This document shows, piece after piece, positions 27,916 to 39,324 of a stretch of 39,324 nt of DNA (within the stretch, counting starts at the first letter, position 1; each line of letters opens with the position of its first letter). A model generated the notes under the pieces. It did not search any database and was not told the origin of the DNA. It saw only the letters and a list, made by a program, of their open reading frames with translations. The DNA is from a virus (lineage: Duplodnaviria > Heunggongvirae > Uroviricota > Caudoviricetes): the IMG/VR virus record IMGVR_UViG_2703718821_000011; one strand, given 5' to 3'. The position numbers and the translations under genes are program-made.

Positions 27916-28027
27916 GCACGCCCCGGCAATCAGGGCCGGTAAGGCATTATTCACCGCAGCCACAGGACACCCCGTAACAGCAGTACCGCACACAGCAGCG
28001 CTATCATGAGCGGTCGCCAGAAGCGGT

Positions 28028-28528
28028 TCAGACTTTCGGCAAGTCGTAGCGACATAACCATTCATCCGCCGAACGGCGGGCCTCAAGGCCGGGGAGTTTC
28101 ACCCCCTTTGAATAAATCCAGCGGATATACTGCTTACAGGACGCGGGCATCTGCCCGGCATTGATCAGGCGCAGAAGCGTGGAGTTGCGGAAGTTCGTTT
28201 CACCGGCCCAGAAGATCCACGAAGCCAGCGCCACAGTCTGACCACGGGTAAGCGGCACCTGAACACGCCGATCAATGGCCGCAAAGGCCCATTTCATGTC
28301 CTTTTCCAGTAGTTCCAGGCATTCTTCATCCGTCAGGGTCATACCCGGTTTCACATCCGGGCCGGTATGGCCGTAACAGATGGTGGGTGTACCGGTGGGA
28401 TCGATATACGTGGAGTTTTCTTTCCCTTCCCAGTAACCGGTGTAATGCGTGGCAATCGTGAACGTCCCGGCACCGGCCAGAACAAGGGCAATCAGCTTTT
28501 TACGCAGTGGTGCGGGGAGTTTTGGCAT
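28028..28528 (-). CDS. lys: SAR endolysin, T4-lysozyme-like (glycoside hydrolase family 24)
   Basis: Gly/Ala-rich weakly hydrophobic N-terminal segment (LIALVLAGAGTFTIA) followed by YWEGKE...TICYGHTG lysozyme-type motifs. Confidence 0.8.
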   Translation of the reverse strand: MPKLPAPLRKKLIALVLAGAGTFTIATHYTGYWEGKENSTYIDPTGTPTICYGHTGPDVKPGMTLTDEECLELLEKDMKWAFAAIDRRVQVPLTRGQTVALASWIFWAGETNFRNSTLLRLINAGQMPASCKQYIRWIYSKGVKLPGLEARRSADEWLCRYDLPKV

Positions 28529-28599
28529 TGTTACGCTGTCTCATGATGTTCTCTGAGTCAGCGTAACGGTGAAGGAAAGGCGGCAGGCTTTGCGGAATA

Positions 28600-29025
28600 T
28601 CAGAAAAGTGGCGGTTGCGTTCTTGCCAGATGCAGACGGCGCTGTTCACGTATGACGGTATAAATCTGGGTTTCTGACATCCGGTAATGGCGGCGAAGGG
28701 ATTCAATTTTCTCGCCCCGGTCCCAGCGCGAAAATATCTCATTGTTTCGCAGCTCGGCAAAGAGAGATTCCCCGACCGGCAGGTAATAACCCCGTCCGCC
28801 CATATAGGCTGCCTGAGCCGCAGCCACCTTGCGTGCCAGTTTACCGGCCAGTACCGGCTCAATCCCCTGACGCTGAAGTTCTGCGCCGGTGACTTCAACC
28901 AGTTCTGACAGGGTCCGCGGCCAGTTCTTTTTGAGAACATCATCAGGGATGTCATCAAGGCGGTCGATAAGGGCGTGCAGTTGCTCACTGTCACCACCAA
29001 ACATGCTCATCTGAGTTTCTGCCAT
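28600..29025 (-). CDS. Mor/C-family transcriptional activator (middle/late gene activator)
   Basis: C-terminal ...RMSETQIYTVIREQRRL... resembles the Mor/C HTH region; sits immediately upstream of lys where Mu has C. Cannot tell whether this is the Mor or the C equivalent. Confidence 0.65.
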   Translation of the reverse strand: MAETQMSMFGGDSEQLHALIDRLDDIPDDVLKKNWPRTLSELVEVTGAELQRQGIEPVLAGKLARKVAAAQAAYMGGRGYYLPVGESLFAELRNNEIFSRWDRGEKIESLRRHYRMSETQIYTVIREQRRLHLARTQPPLF

Positions 29026-29058
29026 ATCAGCCTCCGGTTCTCACGTTCCCGGTAAGTT

Positions 29059-29088
29059 TAAAATAAAAATCCCGCGTTGTGGCGGGAT
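29059..29088 (-). terminator. Rho-independent terminator of the early operon (stem ATCCCGC...GCGGGAT followed by a U-rich tract on the minus-strand RNA)
   Basis: Hairpin immediately downstream of the gemA stop with UUUUUAUUUU on the transcribed strand; Mu has an early-transcript terminator just before the middle/late activator region. Confidence 0.6.
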
Positions 29089-29094
29089 TTGGGG

Positions 29095-29604
29095 TTAACG
29101 GGGAAGTGATTTTTCATACTGCCTGCAAACGGCGTCATACCCCATCAGCGTGCGTTCGGGCATTCCCATCGCGGCCAGCATTTTGCGGCGGTGCCATCGC
29201 TTGAGACGCTCCAGCACATCTGAGGCCAGGGCGGGGTGTTGCTCCAGCCACTGCCAGTTTGCCACACCTTCGCCGCCGTTCTGCGCGGCCGTCTGCGATT
29301 TCACCCAGCGGTTAAGGGCGGTTTCCGCACCATCGGTGATAAAGCCCTGCCGGAGCATCACCTTCCAGATGGCGCGAATTTTGGCGGTCACCGTACCCGG
29401 TTTTAAGGCCCGGTTAACCGGGTTCTGACGCACTTTAAAACCGCGTTTTTTGAAAACATCCAGCACGCGGGATAACTCATCCGGTGACATATCCCGGCAG
29501 CTGGTTTTGCCGGTGGCTGCCAGCAGCGCGGATGTATAAGTCTCATCATCCAGGGCAAGCTCGCGCTTTGCCACATGAATGGCGGATATCAGTTTTCCTC
29601 TCAT
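29095..29604 (-). CDS. gemA: GemA-like protein (Mu gp16 family)
   Basis: LISAIHVAKRELALDDETYTSALLAATGKTSCRDMSPDELSRVLDVFKKRGFK matches the GemA family pattern as I recall it. Confidence 0.65.
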   Translation of the reverse strand: MRGKLISAIHVAKRELALDDETYTSALLAATGKTSCRDMSPDELSRVLDVFKKRGFKVRQNPVNRALKPGTVTAKIRAIWKVMLRQGFITDGAETALNRWVKSQTAAQNGGEGVANWQWLEQHPALASDVLERLKRWHRRKMLAAMGMPERTLMGYDAVCRQYEKSLPR

Positions 29605-29897
29605 ACCGTATTTACCTTTTTACGGACATGGAAAGCCTTTTCTGCCTCATCCCACCGGGCATGGTGTGTTGGTGGAATAATCATTATGTGCCAGCCATCT
29701 CTGGTTGTTATCCGGCAGAAAAATTCACCGCTATATAACACAATGGCCTGCTGAATGAGCGCATCAGCCGCCCGTTCAACCGGATGTCTTTTATCAAAAA
29801 AGCAGATGATTTTTCGACATAACCACCGGGTAATAACAAATGCGCCGAAAAAGGATGTGATATATAAGCACCAGAACAACAGAGAACTATTGTCCAT
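29601..29897 (-). CDS. Hypothetical protein with N-terminal TM helix (early region, lower GC)
   Basis: 98-aa ORF, hydrophobic N-terminus LLFWCLYITSFFGAFVI; 4-nt overlap with gemA. Confidence 0.4.
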   Translation of the reverse strand: MDNSSLLFWCLYITSFFGAFVITRWLCRKIICFFDKRHPVERAADALIQQAIVLYSGEFFCRITTRDGWHIMIIPPTHHARWDEAEKAFHVRKKVNTV

Positions 29898-30084
29898 TAT
29901 CTTTCTCCTTATTCACTCTTCTGCGGCATTCGGCACAGTCATCAGGGCTTTCAAATGTATCCGGCTCGCGATTATGAGCCAGATATAACCACCGTCCACA
30001 TATACTGATATTTTCGCCTGTTTTAAAAAAATGATGCTTCCTGGCCATTAGTGGCCGCGCCCATCCAGCGGGTAGACTATTCAT
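29887..30084 (-). CDS. Hypothetical 65-aa protein with Cys-x-x-Cys pair (possible zinc ribbon)
   Basis: ORF in an operon-like overlapping arrangement; ...CGRW...CAEC.... Confidence 0.35.
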   Translation of the reverse strand: MNSLPAGWARPLMARKHHFFKTGENISICGRWLYLAHNREPDTFESPDDCAECRRRVNKEKDNGQ

Positions 30085-30412
30085 TTGCTTTATCCTCCAT
30101 GCTGGACAGAATCATATGTATTAATGTCGGGCGTGGAGATATACGCATTTCATTAAGCGTCTGAAGGGCAGCAACAGCTGCCTGTTTATCGGTGCCTTTG
30201 GCAATTTCAGCAAGAGAATGCACAATCCATAACGGGCTTAACGCTACGGCTGAATGCAGAATCATGTCATCCATAATAATTTCTGGCATATCCCGTTTGT
30301 CACATTCTTTATCCATAAAAGAAACGATTTTTTCTGCATCTTCCGGTTTCATGCCTCCGGCGATGAGAATTTTACGATATTCATAAGACGATCTTAATTC
30401 AATACTCATCAT
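30077..30412 (-). CDS. Hypothetical 111-aa early protein
   Basis: ORF with overlapping start/stop contexts; no recognised motif. Confidence 0.4.
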   Translation of the reverse strand: MMSIELRSSYEYRKILIAGGMKPEDAEKIVSFMDKECDKRDMPEIIMDDMILHSAVALSPLWIVHSLAEIAKGTDKQAAVAALQTLNEMRISPRPTLIHMILSSMEDKANE

Positions 30413-30424
30413 TCACCTGCCTGT

Positions 30425-30817
30425 TTAATCAGTTTCCAGTGCTTTGCTACGGGCAACAGCCTCACACTCAAAAAATACCGACTCCGGCACACGCTCCTTT
30501 AATTCACGAACAAGAAAATCATTAACGAGTTCATGACGTCTTATATTTCTTTCCTTTTCCTCCTGGCGCAATACAGCAAGGCGGTATTCAACAGTCCGGC
30601 GTTGTTTCTGAAAGACAGCTAGTGCTTTTCTGGCAGAGTTACGCCATGTATCATCGCCACAGGGTTCGTATTCAAGCTGAAATTTAATCTCTTCAATGGT
30701 TTCTTTTATTTTTGCCAGCAAGCTAAGACAGTCGCTGATTGTCTTCAGTTTTTCATTATCAATATAACTTCTCACGCATTCACCTCCCGTCATTCCGGTA
30801 AAGCTGAAATATGGCAC
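30425..30817 (-). CDS. Hypothetical coiled-coil early protein (start probably internal, near 30793)
   Basis: 130-aa ORF; K/E/R-rich helical sequence. Confidence 0.4.
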   Translation of the reverse strand: MPYFSFTGMTGGECVRSYIDNEKLKTISDCLSLLAKIKETIEEIKFQLEYEPCGDDTWRNSARKALAVFQKQRRTVEYRLAVLRQEEKERNIRRHELVNDFLVRELKERVPESVFFECEAVARSKALETD

Positions 30818-31101
30818 CAGTGCGTCACCTGTCCGTCCTCATCTTCAAGGCAGGCTCCGGTTTCTTCATCAATAAAAAAGCCTTCATACCCCATATGGCC
30901 GATGCGCAGTTCCTGTTGGTCACCATACTGAACAATCAGCACGACAGCCTCCATATCAGGCGGAAATGCGTCATCCAGTGAATGCCAGGGATAACCGCGC
31001 AAATCCCCGAAATAAACACCGGTCAGCGTTCCGCCACAAACCGACATTCCGGCGACACATACCAGAGGCTCGTCTGATTCAACAAATAATGTCGTTATCA
31101 T
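30790..31101 (-). CDS. Hypothetical acidic 103-aa early protein
   Basis: ORF with 4-nt overlap to the upstream gene; highly acidic. Confidence 0.4.
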   Translation of the reverse strand: MITTLFVESDEPLVCVAGMSVCGGTLTGVYFGDLRGYPWHSLDDAFPPDMEAVVLIVQYGDQQELRIGHMGYEGFFIDEETGACLEDEDGQVTHWCHISALPE

Positions 31102-31649
31102 GGCATTAACTCCCGTAATACAACATCTTCGGCAGTCCGGCGATGGTGATAAATAAAATTCACCGTACTCTCGGATAATTCAAATTTCTCGCCTATTTCC
31201 CGGAAGGTAAGACGTCGTGGTGATTCAGCATCCCGTAATTCACGAATAAGATGAACATCATCATCAGGTATACGGGTGAAGGGCAGCAACTCTCCGTATT
31301 TTTTCATGCTTACGCCAATATATCGCGCCCGTTTGTGGACAGAATCCCGGTCTCGCCCCAGATATTCTCCTATTTGCTTACCGGTCATCGTTCTGGCATT
31401 TTTTCGGATAAATTTATCTTCATCATGTTTAAATCTTGGACGTTTGCATTTGAGCAACTCCGGGTAAGTACCGCGTAATAAAACAATCCGGTTATGTACA
31501 CCCCAGAAACTTCTTTTTACCCTGACAGCAATATCCTTAACCGGGGTGGATGGATAAAGCGCAATCAGCAGTGCATCTTCTTCAGGTGTCCACGCACGGA
31601 CATGAGCGGGTGCACGGCCTTTTCGCCCCATGGGTTGTAAAATCATCAT
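31098..31649 (-). CDS. Putative DNA-binding regulator with up to three HTH-like segments
   Basis: WTPEEDALLIALY (Myb/SANT-like), TGKQIGEYLGRDRDSVHKRARYIG, and LTFREIGEKFELSESTVNFIYHHRR (sigma-70 region 4/LuxR-like). Confidence 0.45.
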   Translation of the reverse strand: MMILQPMGRKGRAPAHVRAWTPEEDALLIALYPSTPVKDIAVRVKRSFWGVHNRIVLLRGTYPELLKCKRPRFKHDEDKFIRKNARTMTGKQIGEYLGRDRDSVHKRARYIGVSMKKYGELLPFTRIPDDDVHLIRELRDAESPRRLTFREIGEKFELSESTVNFIYHHRRTAEDVVLRELMP

Positions 31650-31652
31650 ACA

Positions 31653-32168
31653 TCACCCCCTGACTCGCTTTTCAGCAGCATAAAACTCATCAGACAGAAT
31701 TTCGGTCATTTTCTGTTTTGCGGGTTTTACGCCGCACTGAAGGTAAATCACATCGTCAACGCAGAACCACTCCACAGGGCCAAACAGGATTGCCGAGAAA
31801 TCAATACCCAGCCAGAACAACAGGGCATCGGTTCTGGCATACGTGACGGGCGAATATTCACGCCACAGACTGTTAAGTTCGTCAGAGGCAGCGCACAGGG
31901 CTTTGGGAATACACGATGTGCGCGGCGTGCAGCTCCAGCCATTCGACGCAGTCGGTTTTCGCCATAAGTCGCGATGAAAAGGATATTTGTTATCCGTAAA
32001 ACGCAGTCCTTTAAAATAAAAACCATTGATACCGGATACAAATACCGACCGACAATCAACATTCAGCACGGCCTCAAGACGTTTTGCCTCATCCTTAACT
32101 TTCTTGTAGTCCTGCTGGTATTTTTGCCACGCAGCCAGCGCGGAAGGGTTTGATGTTTTAAAGAACAT
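31653..32168 (-). CDS. Hypothetical 171-aa early protein
   Basis: ORF in the early operon; no recognised motif. Confidence 0.45.
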   Translation of the reverse strand: MFFKTSNPSALAAWQKYQQDYKKVKDEAKRLEAVLNVDCRSVFVSGINGFYFKGLRFTDNKYPFHRDLWRKPTASNGWSCTPRTSCIPKALCAASDELNSLWREYSPVTYARTDALLFWLGIDFSAILFGPVEWFCVDDVIYLQCGVKPAKQKMTEILSDEFYAAEKRVRG

Positions 32169-32701
32169 TACGCCACCTCCGCAGATATCCCGGCAGGCGC
32201 AGCCGTCCGGTCAACAATCAGGTAACGCAGAACATGTTCGGTGATATTCCAGCCGCTTAAACCGCAGATAATGACACCCAGGCGAATGTCGATATACGCC
32301 ATCACAAACTGGGGCACGCCTTCTTTCATGGCCTGCTCATCAACTTCAGCCACCACATAAACGGTTTCGCAGGTCAGTACGCCCTGAGCAAATTCCCACG
32401 CCATCGACGGAATATCATGCCCCTCAATCCACGGCAGGGATTTTCTGAAGCTGCACCACTGAACATCATCAGCCGCACCTTCCTGGCTGCATTTGCGACG
32501 AACCGGCTGCACCGGGCGGGGACGCGGAATATCATAAAAACCGTTACATTCCGTCAGCACCCCGGCATCGACCGCATCACGCAGAAAATAAACCATCGAG
32601 GATGGCGGCATATTCATTTTTTCAGCCAGAATGCCGCAGGTCAGACGCCCGTAAATACTCAGCCAGTTTTTAACCCCTTCAAGCACTTTTGCATCAATCA
32701 T
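32168..32701 (-). CDS. Hypothetical 177-aa early protein (N-terminal winged-helix-like segment)
   Basis: ORF in the early operon; no recognised catalytic motif. Confidence 0.45.
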   Translation of the reverse strand: MIDAKVLEGVKNWLSIYGRLTCGILAEKMNMPPSSMVYFLRDAVDAGVLTECNGFYDIPRPRPVQPVRRKCSQEGAADDVQWCSFRKSLPWIEGHDIPSMAWEFAQGVLTCETVYVVAEVDEQAMKEGVPQFVMAYIDIRLGVIICGLSGWNITEHVLRYLIVDRTAAPAGISAEVA

Positions 32702-32704
32702 GAA

Positions 32705-33247
32705 TTATTCCTCCGTCAGCGCCACATATTCAGAATGTTTAATTTCCTGGCATTCTTCAGGAATACACCCTTTTATTTCCCTGCCATAAGCGCCTACTTT
32801 AAACACCACGCACAGGGCATCACGGGAGAGCGACGGGGTCCACCAGGAGTCCGTGTTAAACATGGAGGGGATTCTCATTACCCCCAGCTTTTCACAGAGC
32901 CAGACAAGGAAATCAGGACGCTTTCTTAACTCACGTTCAGCGGTTTCAATCATTGCGGCAATCGCCGGACCTTCAGGGCATGACTCATCAGGTCTGGCAA
33001 TAAAGCACGGTCCGTCCCCGATAAAAGCCACATCATCGCGCTTACGCCAGCCCGCAGGCAGAGCACCAGAAAAATAAAACTCACTGATTACGTCCATGGC
33101 AAACGGCTTTAAGCGCAATCCGGCAGCGCCTGTATTTTTCAGTAATGCCCGAAGAATACTGTTGCGTAGCGGTAAAACAGTCTGTTGATATTTGGTGAAA
33201 TATTTATTTGTCTGCACACGGTCTAATTTGAAATAAAAATATGCCAT
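32705..33247 (-). CDS. Hypothetical 180-aa early protein
   Basis: ORF directly downstream of gam with an AAGGAACAGG RBS. Confidence 0.45.
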   Translation of the reverse strand: MAYFYFKLDRVQTNKYFTKYQQTVLPLRNSILRALLKNTGAAGLRLKPFAMDVISEFYFSGALPAGWRKRDDVAFIGDGPCFIARPDESCPEGPAIAAMIETAERELRKRPDFLVWLCEKLGVMRIPSMFNTDSWWTPSLSRDALCVVFKVGAYGREIKGCIPEECQEIKHSEYVALTEE

Positions 33248-33344
33248 ATATCCTGTTCCTTATTTTCAGTTTACAGGCGCAGGCAGTCCCCTGACGCGAG
33301 CGCCATAATTAAAACGAAGTGATATTTAATTGATTAATGCGGTG

Positions 33345-33875
33345 TTATTTATTCAGTCCGGCGTCCTGTTCAAAAGGCTCGACATAAAAACTTTCAGCGC
33401 CTTTATTCACCTTAATACCGGCAATCCCTTTCACCGCATCCGGCTCCGCCAGGACCGCTTCCTTGTTCACTTCCTCTTTCGTGCGGATAAAACGCTCAAG
33501 GCCCATACGGCGCAGCATTTCAATCACACCTTCCACATCACGACTGACGCTGCATGATGGATTCCCCAGTCGCCATGACACCGTTCCGGTGGTCAGATTG
33601 GCTGTTTTGGTTTTGCCGCCGTTCGTCAGCTCATCGCGGTTGGTTTTGCACCAGTCCTGAATCCCCTTAAAAAGCACTTTGATTTCTTTTTTAAGGTTTT
33701 CAATTTGCGGCGTATAACGGGCGGTGATTTCTGCCACTTCATCATTCATCGCCGTTTCCAGCCGCAGCGCCTCTCGCTGAATATCGCCCAGGGTGCGGAT
33801 ATCGCGGCTGACTTCTTCGCGGGTCTGCGGTGCAGCCTCGGCTGCGGCCTTTAATTTTGTAACACGTTTAGCCAT
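33345..33875 (-). CDS. gam: Gam, Ku-like DNA-end-binding host-nuclease inhibitor
   Basis: 176 aa; ...LGDIQREALRLETAMNDEVAEITARY...DELTNGGKTKTANLTTGTVSWR... closely matches Mu Gam as I recall it. Confidence 0.8.
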   Translation of the reverse strand: MAKRVTKLKAAAEAAPQTREEVSRDIRTLGDIQREALRLETAMNDEVAEITARYTPQIENLKKEIKVLFKGIQDWCKTNRDELTNGGKTKTANLTTGTVSWRLGNPSCSVSRDVEGVIEMLRRMGLERFIRTKEEVNKEAVLAEPDAVKGIAGIKVNKGAESFYVEPFEQDAGLNK

Positions 33876-33886
33876 TTTGTTTTTCC

Positions 33887-34180
33887 TTATTGCAGTGTGC
33901 CTGATGCTTTATGCACGCGGTGGCGTTTAATGATGGCATCCGCCCCAAAAGCCTGTACAGATGCCTGAAATTCCGCTGAGAGAAACTGAATAATTACAGG
34001 ACTGTGATACTGGAGAATGCTTGCATAAACGTCACAGAGTGACGTCGGCCTGTTATCCGTATCACGTTCTGTTTTCACATCCACTCCAATCTTTTCATGC
34101 ACTTCAACACTGTCATTGCCTGCCGGTTTTTCGTCATGCGAAACATGCTCAAATTCAAAAATAACGCGTACTTTGCTCAT
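33887..34180 (-). CDS. Small early protein, paralogous at its N-terminus to the upstream gene
   Basis: Begins MSKVRVIFEFEH...; the upstream neighbour begins MSKVVRIIFEYKEH...; remainder unrelated. Confidence 0.45.
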   Translation of the reverse strand: MSKVRVIFEFEHVSHDEKPAGNDSVEVHEKIGVDVKTERDTDNRPTSLCDVYASILQYHSPVIIQFLSAEFQASVQAFGADAIIKRHRVHKASGTLQ

Positions 34181-34184
34181 GGAA

Positions 34185-34457
34185 TTACCCCTGCTGATTA
34201 AATTCATTACCTTTAATAACCCCGGAACTCATGTTCATATCTTTCATGAGCGCTCTGGCTTTCATTGCCACAAGTTCAGCAAAGTCTCTGCTTTCCGCGA
34301 GCATAACCACTCCAAAAATCATGGCGGGTCCATCACCTTTCTGCTTTATCCCGGTTGAACGTATGTCCAGACTTACCCCCATGCGCACTGTTCCATCAGC
34401 GTTTTTATGGATAACGTGCTCCTTGTATTCGAAAATAATGCGTACGACTTTACTCAT
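34185..34457 (-). CDS. Small early protein (90 aa)
   Basis: ORF in the semi-essential early region. Confidence 0.45.
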   Translation of the reverse strand: MSKVVRIIFEYKEHVIHKNADGTVRMGVSLDIRSTGIKQKGDGPAMIFGVVMLAESRDFAELVAMKARALMKDMNMSSGVIKGNEFNQQG

Positions 34458-34735
34458 CCTCTGGTCCTCGTTCTGTTTGGATAACTGACCCGGCGTCTGA
34501 CCTCACGGCAGAACCGAATCATGGCATTAAAGGCTTCTTCCTCCGTCACCGCTTCCGGTATCCCCGGAACCAGTAACTGCTCCTGTTCATCACGTCCATG
34601 ACGCGCCATAACCTCAATCACATGCCGTACCGTGGCAGGCTTTCCGGCAACTATCGGCAATGCACCTTCCGGCAGGACGTAACCAAACTCAATAAGACCA
34701 CTCGACCACGCCCATGCAATGAGATTTTTTTTCAC
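34454..34735 (-). CDS. Small early protein (93 aa)
   Basis: ORF with 4-nt overlap to the downstream gene. Confidence 0.4.
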   Translation of the reverse strand: MKKNLIAWAWSSGLIEFGYVLPEGALPIVAGKPATVRHVIEVMARHGRDEQEQLLVPGIPEAVTEEEAFNAMIRFCREVRRRVSYPNRTRTRG

Positions 34736-34736
34736 C

Positions 34737-35003
34737 TCACACCTCCCAGTAAACCGTGCAGCCGCTGATGCGGGTGGCCTTCACACGGCGGCGCAGGCCG
34801 TTGGTCTGTATGGTGATTTCAATTTCACCGGTTCCCTGCACGTTGCCTACCGGCGGCGTGGTTTTCAGTGCAAAACGTTGTGGGTAGCGCTTACTGCGTT
34901 CCAGTACCGCACCGGCAAGTTCGGTCAGACGGCGCGCGCTGTTCAGGGAGTCGAATAAATTCATTTTGTTACCGCAGGATTGCATATTCATATAACACCT
35001 CAT
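34737..35003 (-). CDS. Small early protein (88 aa; start may be internal)
   Basis: ORF in the early operon. Confidence 0.4.
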   Translation of the reverse strand: MRCYMNMQSCGNKMNLFDSLNSARRLTELAGAVLERSKRYPQRFALKTTPPVGNVQGTGEIEITIQTNGLRRRVKATRISGCTVYWEV

Positions 35004-35231
35004 TTAGCTGACTTGTTTCGCACCAACAGAACGGCATATTCCGCTGTAAACTTCTGTCGCACCTTCGCGATCAAGTCCGGCAGATATCACCATTCGTGTG
35101 CGGTCATTAAATTCAAAAAGTAAATCGCCACATTCTTTATTTTCGGCCAGTGAAATCACCTTCACGTTATCGAAATTAACCAGGTAAAAGCGTCCGTAAA
35201 TATCAGGAATATAAAATACCGCCATAATCAC
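35004..35231 (-). CDS. Small early protein in the Mu kil position (75 aa)
   Basis: First ORF downstream of B, overlapping its stop; positional analogy to Mu kil only. Confidence 0.35.
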   Translation of the reverse strand: MIMAVFYIPDIYGRFYLVNFDNVKVISLAENKECGDLLFEFNDRTRMVISAGLDREGATEVYSGICRSVGAKQVS

Positions 35232-36160
35232 ACCTGTGAGAGTAATTCAGGGTTGGTATAAACCTCTTTAAAGGCCGCATTAATATGTTTTTCTGTCAGC
35301 GCCGCACCTTCACCGCTGGCGGTGAGCCACGCCTGGTTAAGCGTATGTGTCAGAACGCGTAACGCTCCCGGCTTTTCAGCGATAGCCTGCATGACGGCCA
35401 GCTCGGCCTCACCACTGATACCCCATGCCCTGGCAATGGCCAGCACATCCGCCTTTTTGGCCTTGCGAAGTTGTTTTGTACGGGCAAGACGGCTGAACAG
35501 GCGCGATAAATCATCAAAGGCGCGGCGTCCACCTTTAAACAATCCGCGCGGGTTACCAATAAGCACCATCCCGATCCCCGTGGCGTCCTGAATTGCCCGG
35601 AGTTGCTCCAGACCGTCAATACCAAGATGATCCGCCTCATCCACAATCACCAGTCCACGCGTTCCCATCAGGCGACGGCGGATGGCGCGGGATAATGCCC
35701 CTTTGTTCGCGCGGGTGTAATCAATCCCCAGCGCATCGGCCAGCTCCAGCAGACACTCCGTGACGCTGGAGTGCGCGGGTGACAGGGTGATCATCCAGGT
35801 GTTTGGTTGCTCCTGGCAGTAATTACGGGCAGTGGCCGTTTTACCCACACCCGGTACGCCCACAATAACGTTAATACAGCCCATCAGACGAACCGCCTGA
35901 AACAGTGCGCGCAGCTCCTGGACTGTCTGCGTTTCCACAAACTGCGGCGGTTCCGGCAGTGCGCTTTGTTTATTCCAGTTCTCATACCAGGAACGCAGGG
36001 AAGCAGCCACAGCAGCGTTATCGCCTTTATATTTTCCCTTACGGAAAGCCGATAATGTGCCGTCGGAAATTCCCGCCTCTCTGGCGATGGCATACTGCGT
36101 CAGTACGCCGCCATCAATAAGTTCATCAATGGTCTTGATTACATCGTTAATATCAGTCAT
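35228..36160 (-). CDS. B: MuB-like AAA+ ATPase, transposition target-DNA activator
   Basis: 310 aa; Walker A GVPGVGKT, Walker B LVIVDEADHL; directly downstream of the transposase gene. Confidence 0.8.
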   Translation of the reverse strand: MTDINDVIKTIDELIDGGVLTQYAIAREAGISDGTLSAFRKGKYKGDNAAVAASLRSWYENWNKQSALPEPPQFVETQTVQELRALFQAVRLMGCINVIVGVPGVGKTATARNYCQEQPNTWMITLSPAHSSVTECLLELADALGIDYTRANKGALSRAIRRRLMGTRGLVIVDEADHLGIDGLEQLRAIQDATGIGMVLIGNPRGLFKGGRRAFDDLSRLFSRLARTKQLRKAKKADVLAIARAWGISGEAELAVMQAIAEKPGALRVLTHTLNQAWLTASGEGAALTEKHINAAFKEVYTNPELLSQV

Positions 36161-36231
36161 ATTATTAACCTCTCATTTGATACCTTGTTTAATCAAATAA
36201 CCTGAGTCGCCGCTCGGGTTATTTTTTTATT

Positions 36232-38322
36232 TCAGGCCAGCGGGTCATTTTCTTTTAATTTCGCTTCCAGCAACTGCAATCCCCGCTGGAAATTACGCTC
36301 GTATTCTTCATCAGGTTCATCGTCAGCGACCGGTTGCTGAACGATCACCGCATTACCCACAGGGCGATAGATGTTTTCCAGCCATGGCTCCTGCTGCTTG
36401 TGCTCCAGCACGTTGACCACCTCATCCTCGGCATCACGGATTTTTTCCTCTGCGCGTTTACGCATGCCTTTAAGGCGTTGCTGCTGTTTGTAGTATTCCG
36501 CGCTGACCGGGAAGGCTTCGCGTTTATTGCCGCCCCATACCGCCTCGCAAATCACGCTGCCATCCAGGCGACGTACGGTAATTCGTTCGGCATCATGAAT
36601 GTCATAGCTGATAAGCACCTTGCGGCCATGCTCATCACGCAGCTCGGGAGCGTAGTAAATATTATTCAGCCAGCGTATTTCACAGCGTCTTACAGGGCGT
36701 TCCACCATCGGCCGGAACATATCCCGCAGCTCAACATCGGACAGCCATTCAATTTCCGTGTCCTCTTCCGCCAGGCGTTTTTTTCTGAACTCCGCCGGGC
36801 TGTAATGCTTGCCGTTCGGTTTTATGGGTAATTCATCGTGCGGCCGGTTGTTGTACCACTCAACACCATCACGAATGGCATCAATCAGTTCAGCCCAGGA
36901 CGGTAAATCACGCATCGCTGACTGCTGCCGGGCGTTCAGCCGTTTGCCCTGTTGCAGGGCACTGAATGCCGAGCGTAAATCGCGGTTGGTTTTACGTAAC
37001 GTCTCGCGATCTGCACCTTTCCCGAAATAGGTGCGGTATTTACGGGCTATGCGCATCGGTAATGTGCGGTTAAGCCGTTCGATAATGCCCCGTCCCTGCG
37101 GGTTACCGGCAATCCCTGTCGGGTGATTAATCCCCAGTCGCGGCAGAATCCCCACAACTTCCTTATCCAGGATGTCGGCGGTTTCCCCGGAACCGTTATC
37201 CGAGTAATACAGAAACGGTTTGCCGTGATTACGAATACCGTGCTGTATGGCACCGGCTACGGCGAAAACATTTTCAGCCAGGTCAAGGCTCCAGCCCACC
37301 ACAAAGCGCGTGCCACCGTCGATAACAAAGGTCACTTCCGGTGCAAATGGCCGCCCGTGAACCGGGTGCCTGCATTTCAGCTTCATGCCGTGACCGTCAC
37401 CAATCCAGACATAATTCACCGGCATTTTTGACCAGTCGCGGCGCGTGAATCCCTCAAGCTGGCGATATTCACTGCCGGTCACCCGGCCTTTTTGTTTCAC
37501 CACTTCCGGCAGTTTCTTCATTGCGCGGCGAATGGTGTCATAAGACGGCATGATATCGAGCATATAAGGCTCATCAGCGTGCCGGTGCTGCCATTCAGCG
37601 ACAAAATCCTCGTAGGCCTCGGTCATTGGTCGGCCGTTTGACTGGCGATACTGCGCCAGAAATTCGGGCAGCCAGTTAATATCTTCGGCTTTTATTTCCT
37701 GGCGCTTACCCGGTGCCAGCAAAAGCAGGCGTTCGGCGGCGTTCTGCGCCTTGTTAAAGGCTGCAATCCAGCGTTTCAGCGTGATTTCACTCAACGCACG
37801 GCTGTTTCCCTTTTTGGCGTTCGCCGTCTCAACCATTGCCACAATGCGCTCGTCCAGCTGCGAACGTGCCAGGTTGTCAACGATAAACCGGATAGCTTTC
37901 GCACAGCTGAAACCGGGTTGTTGCGCGACTTTCATCACTTCGCTGACGATCGCGATTCGTGCATCAGCCACCTGGCGCTGGTTTTCAGTCAGGGCATTAA
38001 GGCGTTCAACCATCAGTTGTGGTGATCCGCGATATGCCTCCACCGCATCAACCACGGCAGGCGAGCGTCTGGCCTTTGTCACCACCGGAGCCGGTGATTC
38101 ATCGGCTTTTTGCGTCATCAGTTGCAGGGCGTAGCGTTCACGTAATGCCTGCTGCGTCACTTCAGGTAAACAGTCGATACTGTATTCAGTTGCTTTAGAG
38201 CCTGAGCGACGACGGGAACAACAGCTTTTCCCTTGTACGTAACGTTGTAATGCCTGGCGAATACCTTTTGTTGTAGCAGGCATTCCGGGCGCGCCAATCA
38301 GTTCTTTTGCAATGACATACAT
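36232..38322 (-). CDS. A: MuA-family DDE transposase
   Basis: 696 aa; candidate DDE residues in WIGDGH, YYSDNGSGE and GRGIIER contexts; sits between ner and B. Confidence 0.8.
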   Translation of the reverse strand: MYVIAKELIGAPGMPATTKGIRQALQRYVQGKSCCSRRRSGSKATEYSIDCLPEVTQQALRERYALQLMTQKADESPAPVVTKARRSPAVVDAVEAYRGSPQLMVERLNALTENQRQVADARIAIVSEVMKVAQQPGFSCAKAIRFIVDNLARSQLDERIVAMVETANAKKGNSRALSEITLKRWIAAFNKAQNAAERLLLLAPGKRQEIKAEDINWLPEFLAQYRQSNGRPMTEAYEDFVAEWQHRHADEPYMLDIMPSYDTIRRAMKKLPEVVKQKGRVTGSEYRQLEGFTRRDWSKMPVNYVWIGDGHGMKLKCRHPVHGRPFAPEVTFVIDGGTRFVVGWSLDLAENVFAVAGAIQHGIRNHGKPFLYYSDNGSGETADILDKEVVGILPRLGINHPTGIAGNPQGRGIIERLNRTLPMRIARKYRTYFGKGADRETLRKTNRDLRSAFSALQQGKRLNARQQSAMRDLPSWAELIDAIRDGVEWYNNRPHDELPIKPNGKHYSPAEFRKKRLAEEDTEIEWLSDVELRDMFRPMVERPVRRCEIRWLNNIYYAPELRDEHGRKVLISYDIHDAERITVRRLDGSVICEAVWGGNKREAFPVSAEYYKQQQRLKGMRKRAEEKIRDAEDEVVNVLEHKQQEPWLENIYRPVGNAVIVQQPVADDEPDEEYERNFQRGLQLLEAKLKENDPLA

Positions 38323-38323
38323 A

Positions 38324-38572
38324 TCATGACGCCTTTCTCATATAGCTCTTAACCTGGTATCGACTGGGCCAGATTTCTTCAGGCGATACCCCAAGAGCAT
38401 CAGCAATTATTTGCTGATACGGTCGGCAAGGAGTACGTAATACGCTTTTCAGCGAATCCCTGCTGTAACCAGCCTTTAAAGATAAAGAGCGCAGTGATAA
38501 GCCAGCCATGTGTAAGCGCGCCTTGATGATTTCAGGCGGCCAATCGTGATCTGAAACTTCTCTTCTACTCAT
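38324..38572 (-). CDS. ner: Ner-like DNA-binding regulator (Ner/Nlp family)
   Basis: ...QQIIADALGVSPEEIWPSRYQ matches the Mu Ner C-terminal motif (EQIIANALETKPEVIWPSRYQ); GAGGAAG RBS upstream. Confidence 0.8.
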   Translation of the reverse strand: MSRREVSDHDWPPEIIKARLHMAGLSLRSLSLKAGYSRDSLKSVLRTPCRPYQQIIADALGVSPEEIWPSRYQVKSYMRKAS

Positions 38573-38739
38573 ACTTCCTCTATTCTAAAAAGTTACCCGC
38601 GCGGATATTCGTGCGGATATCTGTACGGGTAAATAATAGAACAAACAAAAGAACCAGATCAAGGTATTTTGTTCTTTTTATTCTTTGTAGTGTTTTTGTT
38701 ATTAATATCAATAAGATAAATACAAAGGAACCTGAGAGC
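38573..38739. promoter_or_regulatory. Divergent early/repressor promoter-operator region between ner and c
   Basis: TTACCCG...CGGGTAA inverted repeat (~38593-38632) enclosing two GCGGATAT direct repeats; second inverted repeat AAAAGAAC...GTTCTTTT (~38648-38678); AT-rich. Confidence 0.5.
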
Positions 38740-39324
38740 ATGAACATGAAAAACAGTTCTTTTCTCGACGAAGGAAAAGAACCAGTGATCGAACGGATTT
38801 TTCGTCTTGCAGAGCGTTACAAATCGAGAAGTGAGGCGGCTAGAGCATGGGGAATAAACGTTCAGACATTGCAGAACTACTACAAAAGGAGAAACAATCA
38901 GCCGCCACCACAACCAAGAAAGCACCATCTCCAGAACATTGCAGAAAGAGAACATGTATCTATGGAGTGGCTAGTCCATGGTTATGGTGATGAGCCAAGC
39001 ATGAAAAAAGAACCAATTGAACAAGCAAAAAGAACAAAAAAACAAAGAATTGATGATAGTGATTCCATCATCATGAGGGCGTGGGACTCGCTAACTTCAT
39101 CTGAACAAGAGATTTTGTCCAACTTATTGATCAGAAAAGGGGCCGAACTACTAACCGTTTTGCTTGATACAGATATTCAAAAACTGCACTCATTGAGCGG
39201 AGTCAAAAGAGCACTAGCATTGAGTCTACAAGAGTTACCCGATGATACTGTAAGAGAGATTTATGAAGAATGTGAAGCTAAGGTTAATCATTTAAATGTA
39301 ACCCAGAAAAAGGCTAGTGCGTAA
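38740..39324 (+). CDS. c: Mu c-type lysogeny repressor
   Basis: Divergent from ner; C-terminal ...LLIRKGAELLTVLL...QKLHSLSGV...LPDDTVREIY resembles the Mu repressor C-terminal region; AAGGA RBS before the ATG at 38740. Stop codon is the last triplet of the window. Confidence 0.65.
   Translation: MNMKNSSFLDEGKEPVIERIFRLAERYKSRSEAARAWGINVQTLQNYYKRRNNQPPPQPRKHHLQNIAEREHVSMEWLVHGYGDEPSMKKEPIEQAKRTKKQRIDDSDSIIMRAWDSLTSSEQEILSNLLIRKGAELLTVLLDTDIQKLHSLSGVKRALALSLQELPDDTVREIYEECEAKVNHLNVTQKKASA

What the first reader, a model, noticed from the sequence alone, without database searches (positions are those of the whole stretch)
31098..31649. Early-region protein with three helix-turn-helix-like segments
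The 183-aa product combines a Myb/SANT-like WTPEEDALLIALY segment, a central HTH-like stretch, and a C-terminal sigma-70 region 4/LuxR-like HTH (LTFREIGEKFELSESTVNFI). A multi-HTH regulator in the early operon could redirect host or phage transcription and has no Mu counterpart that I recognise.
Basis: inference. Interest (0 to 1): 0.45.

Follow-up and report, generated by a model that had tools for sequence, protein, structure and literature searches.

The report
D5-like triple-HTH phage early protein
This early gene of a Mu-like E. coli prophage encodes a small basic protein made of three helix-turn-helix DNA-binding modules; it belongs to a widespread phage family that includes phage T5's D5 protein and Mu's own gp9, so it is a new member of a known kind, not a new regulator type.

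Summary

The protein belongs to PHROG 323, "transcriptional regulator, D5-like" (E 6e-58). It aligns colinearly with T5 D5, which the T5 record describes as a DNA-binding protein required for replication and late transcription. It does have a Mu counterpart: gp9/E8, a two-module homologue (31% identity, E 5e-10) at a different map position.

Relatives sit in early operons of Mu-like, P2-like and lambdoid prophages, usually beside replication genes. The predicted recognition helices are the most variable part, even between two E. coli alleles. Function is inferred: a DNA-binding accessory factor for early replication or transcription. It is a new member of a known kind, of modest interest.

The parts
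31098..31649 (-). Complete CDS of the 183-aa D5-like triple-HTH protein (pI 10.0, 21.6 kDa); identical to RefSeq WP_000973026.1, annotated 'hypothetical protein'
   Evidence: ORF list; RefSeq annotation; PHROG 323 E 6.3e-58; dN/dS 0.29; pI and mass
31656..31661 (-). Shine-Dalgarno-like AGGGGG, 6 nt upstream of the ATG; the upstream gp12-like gene's TGA stop lies at 31653-31655, between the SD and the ATG
   Evidence: Sequence read directly
31599..31649 (-). Conserved N-terminal arm, residues 1-17 (family consensus MILxPMGxPGxCPAHV); low pLDDT, net charge +3
   Evidence: Alignments; entropy 0.89; pLDDT below 50 for residues 1-7 and 10-12
31461..31598 (-). HTH module 1, residues 18-63: Myb/SANT/GcrA-DBD-like three-helix bundle (WTPEEDALLIALY...); third helix at 48-61
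31314..31433 (-). HTH module 2, residues 73-112: second Myb-like repeat (FKHDEDKFIRKNARTMTGKQIGEYLGRDRDSVHKRARYIG); aligns with the first module of Mu gp9
   Evidence: AF2; hhalign; c-Myb R3 alignment; Mu gp9 alignment
31101..31271 (-). HTH module 3, residues 127-183: four-helix module resembling sigma-70 region 4 or LuxR. Helices 1 and 2 (DDDVHLIRELRD, FREIGEKF) are nearly invariant; the third helix (160-169) is hypervariable. Aligns with the second module of Mu gp9
   Evidence: AF2; sub-threshold Pfam hits; conservation; Mu gp9 alignment
31098..31101 (-). ATGA overlap: the TGA stop of this gene (31098-31100) overlaps the ATG of the downstream 103-aa gene (30790-31101), indicating translational coupling
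   Evidence: Sequence and ORF coordinates

Best explanation
The gene encodes a small, basic protein made only of DNA-binding modules, with no enzymatic or sensor domain. It belongs to the phage D5-like family (PHROG 323).

Shown here:
- It is a real, conserved gene in the Mu-type early operon, translationally coupled to its neighbours.
- It folds as three tandem tri-helical HTH modules joined by linkers whose relative orientation is not predicted.
- Modules 1 and 2 are homologous repeats of the Myb R2R3 / GcrA-DBD type.
- It is homologous to T5 D5 over all three modules and to Mu gp9 over modules 2 and 3.
- Relatives in four phage architectures lie in early operons next to replication genes.

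Inferred:
- It binds double-stranded DNA, probably as a monomer. Modules 1 and 2 and the N-terminal arm are basic and would lie in successive major grooves as Myb R2R3 does.
- The near-invariant, often acidic face of module 3 (helices 1 and 2) contacts a conserved partner or completes the DNA grip.
- By analogy with T5 D5, it acts early in lytic growth as an accessory factor that promotes phage replication and/or the switch from early to later transcription. It is not a sigma-like reprogrammer of RNA polymerase.
- The hypervariable third helices imply that DNA specificity differs between phages, or that this surface is under pressure from host sensors.
For: - Gene reality and operon position.
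- Fold.
- Internal repeats.
- Family membership: PHROG 323 E 6.3e-58. T5 D5 falls in the same PHROG at E 1.2e-71 and aligns colinearly, residues 18-171 to 72-232, hhalign 96.7%, E 4e-10.
- Mu gp9.
- Charge: pI 10.0, modules 1 and 2 net +3 and +5, module 3 net -4.
- Context in 77 IMG/VR loci: 42 are Mu-like, always directly after the gp12-like gene. 28 are P2-like with replication gene A downstream, overlapping it in L006-L009. 7 were unclassified; the one examined, L066, is lambdoid, with the gene downstream of replication genes O and P. In T5, D5 sits between ligase B and the helicase, primase and polymerase genes.
- T5 D5 function: the record note reads [quoted passage not shown]. A citing paper summarises McCorquodale 1979. 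A 2026 preprint reports HTH-mediated DNA binding and mild toxicity of D5.
Against: - No experiment or DNA target exists for this protein or for Mu gp9, and no binding site was identified here.
- Similarity to T5 D5 is remote (about 23% identity). D5 also has an extra N-terminal region of about 70 aa and a Lys/Ala-rich tail that are absent here, so functional transfer is weak.
- Module 3 is acidic in many members and its third helix is not conserved. That fits poorly with a shared DNA target and could mean it is not a DNA-binding module.
- Mu's semi-essential early region is dispensable for plaque formation (established knowledge, not tested here), so any role is likely accessory.
- pTM of 0.48 means the overall architecture is not predicted.
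- Foldseek against the PDB gave no significant whole-chain match.
Confidence: 0.6

Rival explanations
1. Architectural or non-specific DNA-coating protein. Like the abundant T5 D5 dsDNA-binding protein, it would bind DNA with little sequence preference, organising or protecting replicating phage DNA rather than regulating particular promoters.
For: - The only characterised relative is described as a general DNA-binding protein affecting both replication and transcription.
- The protein is strongly basic and has no effector or dimerisation domain.
- Recognition helices are not conserved across the family.
- It sits next to replication genes in four phage types.
Against: - Myb R2R3-type and GcrA-type modules are typically sequence-selective (established knowledge).
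- Substitutions concentrate in the third helices while the scaffold is held. That looks more like changing specificity than relaxed non-specific binding.
- Gene dosage and abundance are unknown.
Confidence: 0.22
2. One reading: an RNA-polymerase-directed factor. Module 3 would mimic sigma-70 region 4, or, as GcrA does, the protein would tether RNA polymerase or sigma-70 to phage promoters and redirect transcription.
For: - Sigma70_r4 hits at E<=0.01 in 12 of 18 family members, best 4.9e-8.
- Sigma factors appear among the weak Foldseek hits.
- The best structural match is the DBD of GcrA, a protein that works through sigma-70 (for the match; the mechanism is established knowledge).
- The invariant helix 1 and 2 face of module 3 could be a protein-binding surface.
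Against: - In this protein the Sigma70_r4 match covers 23 residues and scores 19.4 bits against a cut-off of 24.1.
- There are no sigma regions 2 or 3 and no GcrA C-terminal sigma-interacting domain.
- This prophage already encodes the Mu-type middle activator Mor.
Confidence: 0.1
3. The protein's main selective role lies at the phage-defence interface. It could be an anti-defence DNA mimic-binder or decoy, or a protein whose DNA-binding surface is sensed by host systems such as retrons. The hypervariable third helices would then reflect an arms race rather than target specificity.
For: - T5 D5 is reported to trigger type IX retron-Kva2 through HTH binding to msdDNA, and escape mutants map to D5.
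- Between two E. coli alleles the gene is 78.6% nucleotide-identical, while the flanking gp12-like and gp11-like genes are 95% and 98% identical.
- Substitutions hit 21 of 34 third-helix residues against 33 of 149 elsewhere, p = 1.5e-5.
- dN/dS is 0.63 in the recognition zones against 0.19 elsewhere.
Against: - dN/dS stays below 1.
- The allelic pattern could equally come from recombination with a diverged phage.
- No defence gene is linked to it.
- Being sensed by a defence system is a liability, not a function.
Confidence: 0.06
4. AsnC/Lrp-family regulator (the name NCBI gives most homologues), or a leftover DNA-binding domain from a homing HNH endonuclease.
For: - Source names of 'AsnC family protein'.
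- HTH_AsnC-type hit at E 9e-5.
- Weak PHROG hits to HNH endonuclease families, and mycobacteriophage hits lying under HNH or methylase features.
Against: - HTH_AsnC-type scores 22.6 bits against a cut-off of 27.
- There is no RAM/AsnC_trans_reg domain and the model is all-alpha.
- There is no nuclease domain.
- The full-length architecture is conserved at 34-100% identity across 77 viral loci and is under purifying selection.
Confidence: 0.02

Closest known systems
Bacteriophage T5 D5 protein (T5.118, YP_006946.1), the named member of PHROG 323
   Same: - Same PHROG: E 6.3e-58 here, 1.2e-71 for D5.
- Colinear alignment over all three HTH modules, hhalign 96.7%.
- Early gene beside replication genes.
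   Different: - D5 has 255 aa, with an extra N-terminal region of about 70 aa and a C-terminal Lys/Ala-rich tail.
- Identity is only about 23%.
- D5 belongs to a virulent phage and is recorded as required for replication and late transcription. The gene here lies in the part of a temperate transposable phage that corresponds to Mu's dispensable semi-essential region.
- No functional data exist for this protein.
Bacteriophage Mu gp9 (Mup09, formerly E8), uncharacterised early protein
   Same: - Homologous to residues 66-166 (modules 2 and 3): 31% identity, E 5e-10.
- Same PHROG.
- Same early operon of a transposable phage.
   Different: - gp9 has two modules (99 aa), not three.
- It maps immediately upstream of gam, whereas this gene follows the gp12-like gene, roughly in Mu's gp13/gp14 slot.
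- This prophage has an unrelated gene (phrog_2230) in the slot before gam and no second D5-like copy.
Caulobacter GcrA DNA-binding domain (PDB 5yiu)
   Different: - 17% identity.
- GcrA has one DBD plus a sigma-70-interacting C-terminal domain, absent here.
- Pfam GcrA (PF07750) is not hit by this protein.
Eukaryotic c-Myb R2R3 / SANT repeats
   Same: The family profile aligns modules 1 and 2 colinearly with R2 and R3 at E 5.9e-6. Both are tandem tri-helical repeats in which the third helix would be the recognition helix.
   Different: - This protein is below the Pfam Myb cut-off (14.6 against 24.4 bits).
- It lacks the three regularly spaced tryptophans: only W20 occupies the canonical first position.
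- The helix 1-2 loop is shorter.
Poly-repeat prokaryotic and phage proteins built from the same unit (for example P0034, an SF2 helicase with about 9 repeats, and P0078, a 301-aa protein with at least three profile-matched stretches)
   Same: The same WTxEEDxFLxxNY..MSxxEIAxxLGRSxxSVxxRAxxLG unit matches the family profile in 3-10 stretches per protein.
   Different: Those proteins are arrays of near-identical repeats, often fused to helicase domains. This protein has three diverged modules plus a conserved N-terminal arm and a distinct C-terminal four-helix module.

Membership tests
PHROG 323 'transcriptional regulator, D5-like' | Significant match to the family profile | tested here: met
   E 6.3e-58, 197.8 bits, residues 2-182 to profile positions 80-256 of 319
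PHROG 323 'transcriptional regulator, D5-like' | Colinear homology to the named member, T5 D5 | tested here: met
   hhalign 96.7%, E 4.1e-10, 150 columns, residues 18-171 to D5 72-232; D5 itself hits phrog_323 at E 1.2e-71
PHROG 323 'transcriptional regulator, D5-like' | D5-specific N-terminal region (about 70 aa) and C-terminal Lys/Ala-rich tail | tested here: not met
   Absent in the alignment
PHROG 323 'transcriptional regulator, D5-like' | dsDNA binding; required for replication and late transcription | not testable with these tools
   Known for T5 D5 only from the record note and cited literature
Mu gp9 (E8) orthologue | Sequence homology to Mu gp9 | tested here: met
   31% identity, E 5e-10 over residues 66-166; family HMM gives 42.3 bits and no other Mu early protein matches
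Mu gp9 (E8) orthologue | Same map position (between gp8 and gam) and same two-module length | tested here: not met
   Here the gene lies after the gp12-like gene and has three modules
Myb/SANT domain (Pfam PF00249 / PF13921) | Score above the Pfam gathering threshold | tested here: not met
   14.6 against 24.4 bits and 16.1 against 22.9 bits; 11 of 18 relatives hit at E<=0.01; the family profile matches c-Myb at E 5.9e-6
Myb/SANT domain (Pfam PF00249 / PF13921) | Tri-helical bundle with HTH formed by helices 2 and 3 | tested here: met
Myb/SANT domain (Pfam PF00249 / PF13921) | Three regularly spaced Trp (or aromatic) core residues per repeat | tested here: not met
   Sequence read directly: module 1 has W20 at the first position only (plus a non-canonical W49); module 2 starts with F73
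GcrA family (PF07750) | GcrA-type DNA-binding fold | tested here: met
GcrA family (PF07750) | C-terminal sigma-70-interacting domain; Pfam GcrA match | tested here: not met
   No PF07750 hit at E<=10; the whole chain is accounted for by three HTH modules
Sigma-70 family / region 4; LuxR-GerE | Pfam Sigma70_r4 or GerE above threshold; presence of sigma region 2 | tested here: not met
   Sigma70_r4 19.4 against 24.1 bits over 23 residues, Sigma70_r4_2 16.0 against 25.7, no GerE hit; TIGR02937 14.7 against 42.9; no region 2 or 3
AsnC/Lrp family (name given by NCBI to homologues) | HTH_AsnC-type above threshold plus a C-terminal RAM (AsnC_trans_reg) domain | tested here: not met
   22.6 against 27 bits; no RAM domain hit; the model is all-alpha

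The most novel reading that the evidence does not exclude
The D5-like gene could be a mobile, single-gene specificity cassette. Its three recognition helices would be re-tuned phage by phage, and even allele by allele within near-identical E. coli Mu-like prophages. The driver would be either each phage's own replication or transcription target, or evasion of host sensors such as type IX retrons, which detect the DNA-binding surface of T5 D5. On this reading the temperate-phage D5-like proteins would be a previously unrecognised class of defence-exposed early DNA-binding factors, and Mu's long-unassigned gp9 would acquire a function.
Probability: 0.15. Interest if true: 0.55.

Novelty: new member of a known kind. 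Interest (0 to 1): 0.28.

Why it matters
RefSeq annotates this protein as "hypothetical protein", and NCBI names most of its close homologues "AsnC family protein". Placing it, together with Mu gp9/E8, in the T5 D5 family gives a testable function to an unassigned gene of the Mu semi-essential early region. That function would be DNA binding that supports early replication or transcription.

It also links temperate Mu-like, P2-like and lambdoid prophages of EHEC E. coli, Salmonella and Citrobacter to a protein class recently reported to trigger a retron defence system.

The practical value is better annotation and a short list of experiments. It is not a new mechanism.

Tried and rejected
- **Single-sequence search of PDB sequences:** only a designed HTH protein at E 0.16.
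- **NCBIfam:** nothing above cut-off.
- **Genome-contig scan with the family alignment:** 177 pattern matches, none confirmed.
- **Conserved two-gene module across phage types:** rejected. The downstream 103-aa gene is conserved only in Mu-like prophages.
- **Second D5-like or gp9-like copy in the window:** none.
- **T5.108 (the record's note cites InterPro domains IPR001005 and IPR001410) as a relative:** no match to the family HMM.
- **T5 ORF55, the DNA-binding trigger of DRT4:** unrelated; it is a PriA-NTD-like ssDNA binder.
- **Promoter and terminator scans of 28000-39324:** counts no higher than in shuffled sequence, so there is no evidence for a private promoter.
- **Literature on Mu gp9/E8:** nothing found. 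The original T5 D5 paper (PMC353123) is not held.
- **AsnC/Lrp, sigma-factor and homing-endonuclease-remnant readings:** rejected on domain content.

Full report
**1. The observation**

The window carries an ATG-to-TGA ORF of 183 aa at 31098-31649 on the minus strand.

On the coding strand the start region reads ...CAGGGGGTGATGTATGATG... This gives an AGGGGG Shine-Dalgarno 6 nt before the ATG, with the TGA stop of the upstream gene lying between them. At the 3' end, the TGA stop overlaps the ATG of the next gene as ATGA. The gene is therefore tightly packed and probably translationally coupled on both sides.

Against a 70%-identical allele, dN/dS is 0.29. More distant relatives have saturated synonymous sites yet keep 37-54% amino-acid identity. 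It is a real protein-coding gene.

**2. Where it sits**

The region is 100% identical to chromosomes of many E. coli strains, including O157:H7 and O111:H8. Similar DNA is present in 233 of 5426 complete genomes. Two Stx-phage records label the same DNA "region of the inserted Bacteriophage Mu-like phage".

RefSeq annotation of an identical copy shows a Mu-type layout, listed here in the direction of early transcription:
- repressor and Ner-like HTH;
- MuA and MuB;
- small early genes and Gam;
- eight "hypothetical" genes, including this one (WP_000973026.1);
- gp16/GemA and Mor;
- lysis and head genes.

Profile searches identify the neighbours. Upstream are Gam (33345-33875), a Mu gp11-like protein (32168-32701, PF25754) and a gp12-like protein (31653-32168; PF26885 on record for its 171-aa counterpart at the same position in L010-L012). 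Downstream are GemA (29095-29604) and Mor (28600-29025).

Consensus scans for promoters and terminators give counts no higher than in shuffled sequence. Nothing suggests the gene has its own promoter.

**3. What the protein is**

Pfam gives only sub-threshold HTH hits for this sequence: HTH_AsnC-type 22.6/27, Sigma70_r4 19.4/24.1 and Myb 14.6/24.4 bits. NCBIfam gives nothing useful. PHROGs gives a strong hit to phrog_323, "transcriptional regulator, D5-like" (E 6.3e-58, residues 2-182).

An AF2 model built on 18 homologues has mean pLDDT 82, about 90 inside the modules. It shows three three-helix bundles:
- helices 22-31/37-44/48-61;
- helices 75-84/90-97/101-110;
- helices 129-140/149-156/160-169, with a fourth helix at 173-181.

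pTM is 0.48, so the modules behave as beads on a string.

Profile-profile comparison of the segments shows that modules 1 and 2 are homologous repeats (98.3%, E 2.5e-14). Module 3 is a more distant relative of module 2 (80.9%, E 1.2e-5).

The protein has pI 10.0. Modules 1 and 2 are basic (+3, +5). Module 3 is acidic (-4) here and ranges from -6 to +4 among relatives.

**4. Relatives, including in Mu**

*Mu gp9.* The INPHARED copy of the Mu record labels gp9 (Mup09, formerly E8, 99 aa) "transcriptional regulator, D5-like". Three direct tests confirm the relationship:
- gp9 aligns to residues 66-166 (modules 2 and 3) at 31% identity, E 5e-10.
- gp9 hits phrog_323 at E 5e-29.
- gp9 is the only Mu early protein that matches an HMM of this family (42 bits).

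"No Mu counterpart" is therefore wrong. The counterpart, however, has two modules and maps just before gam, whereas this gene follows the gp12-like gene. In this prophage the slot before gam holds an unrelated gene (phrog_2230), and there is no second D5-like copy in the window.

*T5 D5.* The family's namesake, T5 D5 (T5.118, 255 aa), hits phrog_323 at E 1.2e-71. It aligns colinearly with all three modules (hhalign 96.7%, E 4e-10). D5 has an additional N-terminal region and a Lys/Ala-rich tail.

The T5 record describes D5 as a [quoted passage not shown]. A citing paper summarises McCorquodale et al. 1979 in the same terms. I could not read the original paper. A July 2026 preprint reports that D5 triggers the type IX retron-Kva2 by HTH binding to its msdDNA and is mildly toxic on its own.

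**5. Distribution**

Close full-length relatives of 178-187 aa come from E. coli, Salmonella and Citrobacter. Sources name them "AsnC family protein" or "SANT/Myb domain-containing protein".

An exhaustive profile search finds 13,605 cluster representatives at E<=1e-3. Many are long proteins with 3-10 tandem copies of the same WTxEED...IA..LGRS..V..RA..LG unit, and some are fused to SF2 helicase domains. BFVD structure matches are likewise mostly uncharacterised phage multi-HTH proteins.

In IMG/VR, 77 loci encode full-length relatives at 34-100% identity. Marker searches classify them as follows:
- **Mu-like, 42 loci.** The gene always lies directly after the gp12-like gene.
- **P2-like, 28 loci.** The replication initiator gene A is downstream, and a Dam-like methyltransferase is often adjacent. 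In the Salmonella and Citrobacter prophages L006-L009 the gene's stop overlaps gene A. Citrobacter phage Shae_phiSM has the same arrangement, and its copy is annotated "DNA binding protein".
- **Unclassified, 7 loci.** The one examined (L066) is lambdoid. The gene lies downstream of replication genes O and P and upstream of a C5 cytosine methylase.

In T5, D5 lies between ligase B and the helicase, primase and polymerase genes.

The downstream 103-aa neighbour is conserved only in Mu-like prophages. The gene therefore moves as a single unit. Its one constant association is with early operons and replication modules.

**6. Conservation pattern**

Across 18 homologues, the third helix of each module, which would be the recognition helix, is the most variable element (mean entropies 1.75, 1.84, 2.09). 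Helices 1 and 2 of module 3 are nearly invariant (0.51, 0.27), and the N-terminal arm is well conserved (0.89).

The same pattern appears between two alleles found in otherwise near-identical E. coli Mu-like prophages:
- The gene is 78.6% nucleotide-identical, while the flanking gp12-like and gp11-like genes are 95% and 98% identical.
- Using AF2-defined helix boundaries, 21 of 34 third-helix residues differ, against 33 of 149 elsewhere (Fisher p = 1.5e-5).
- With slightly wider zones chosen after inspecting the alignment, dN/dS is 0.63 against 0.19. This figure carries less weight because the zones were set post hoc.

The pattern is compatible with diverging DNA specificity, with pressure from host sensors, or with recombination from a diverged phage. 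I cannot separate these here.

**7. How it most likely works**

*Shown:* the protein is a stand-alone array of three HTH modules with no enzymatic, sensor or obvious oligomerisation domain. It is encoded in the early operon and is homologous to T5 D5 and Mu gp9.

*Inferred:*
- It binds duplex DNA. Modules 1 and 2 would act as a Myb R2R3-like pair, helped by the basic N-terminal arm.
- Module 3's invariant helix 1 and 2 surface contacts a conserved partner or completes the DNA grip.
- Its role is that of an accessory early factor for phage replication and/or the early-to-later transcription switch, by analogy with D5 and from its constant position next to replication genes.

I give this 0.6 overall. 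The "multi-HTH DNA-binding, D5-family" part stands at about 0.85 and the specific role at about 0.4.

*Rivals:*
- a non-specific architectural DNA binder (0.22);
- a primary role at the defence interface (0.06);
- an AsnC/Lrp regulator or endonuclease remnant (0.02, rejected on domain content).

**8. Novelty and verdict**

The multi-HTH nature of the family is already captured by the PHROG annotation and by NCBI names for homologues. The family has a biochemically studied member. This protein is a new member of a known kind.

What this analysis adds:
- the explicit link between this gene, Mu gp9/E8 and T5 D5;
- correction of the "AsnC family" name;
- the single-gene mobility across Mu-like, P2-like and lambdoid early operons;
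- the recognition-helix hypervariability.

Interest is modest (0.28). It would rise if the variable helices prove to set phage-specific targets, or to reflect retron-type sensing.

Noticed in passing
window 29067-29090 (minus strand): The strongest terminator-like hairpin in the early region (9-bp stem, 5 GC pairs, T-rich tail) lies between the end of gemA (29095) and the start of mor (29025). The early transcript may be attenuated before mor, unlike the textbook Mu layout.
   Followed up: no
L001 17598-17921 (flank of an identical prophage copy in E. coli CFSAN027343; just beyond window end 39324): The prophage's repressor end abuts a truncated lsrC pseudogene followed by lsrA. This copy of the Mu-like prophage therefore interrupts the autoinducer-2 (lsr) transport operon.
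   Followed up: no
L006/L007 5752-6687, L008/L009 5649-6614, L066 8257-10310; phage hits H8-H13: D5-like genes in P2-like and lambdoid prophages are repeatedly found within a gene or two of DNA methyltransferase genes (Dam-like MethyltransfD12, or C5 cytosine methylase). In cluster-related mycobacteriophages the Myb-like repeats lie under features annotated as DNA methylase or HNH endonuclease. The best fold match, GcrA, is known to prefer methylated DNA, so a link to DNA methylation is conceivable but was not tested.
   Followed up: partly
P0034, P0087, P0139 (representative proteins): Long proteins combine an N-terminal SF2 helicase (ResIII plus Helicase_C) with arrays of the same Myb/GcrA-like HTH unit; P0034 has about 9 near-identical copies. 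Their source organisms and functions are not given by the library.
   Followed up: partly
L005 5646-6946 (Salmonella Mu-like prophage): This Mu-like prophage has DUF3164 and DUF5420 proteins where the E. coli prophage and Mu have Gam, yet keeps gp11-like, gp12-like and D5-like genes in the same order.
   Followed up: no
window 29887-30084 (minus strand): A 65-aa ORF matches only the first 67 of 146 positions of phrog_2358 and contains a C-x...-CxxC arrangement (CGRW...CAEC). It may be a truncated or zinc-ribbon-like small early protein.
   Followed up: no
window 30790-31101 (minus strand) and L005 8546-8878: The 103-aa gene immediately downstream is 79% identical between the E. coli and Salmonella Mu-like prophages, while the D5-like gene next to it is only 54% identical. 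The D5-like gene evolves markedly faster than its neighbour.
   Followed up: partly
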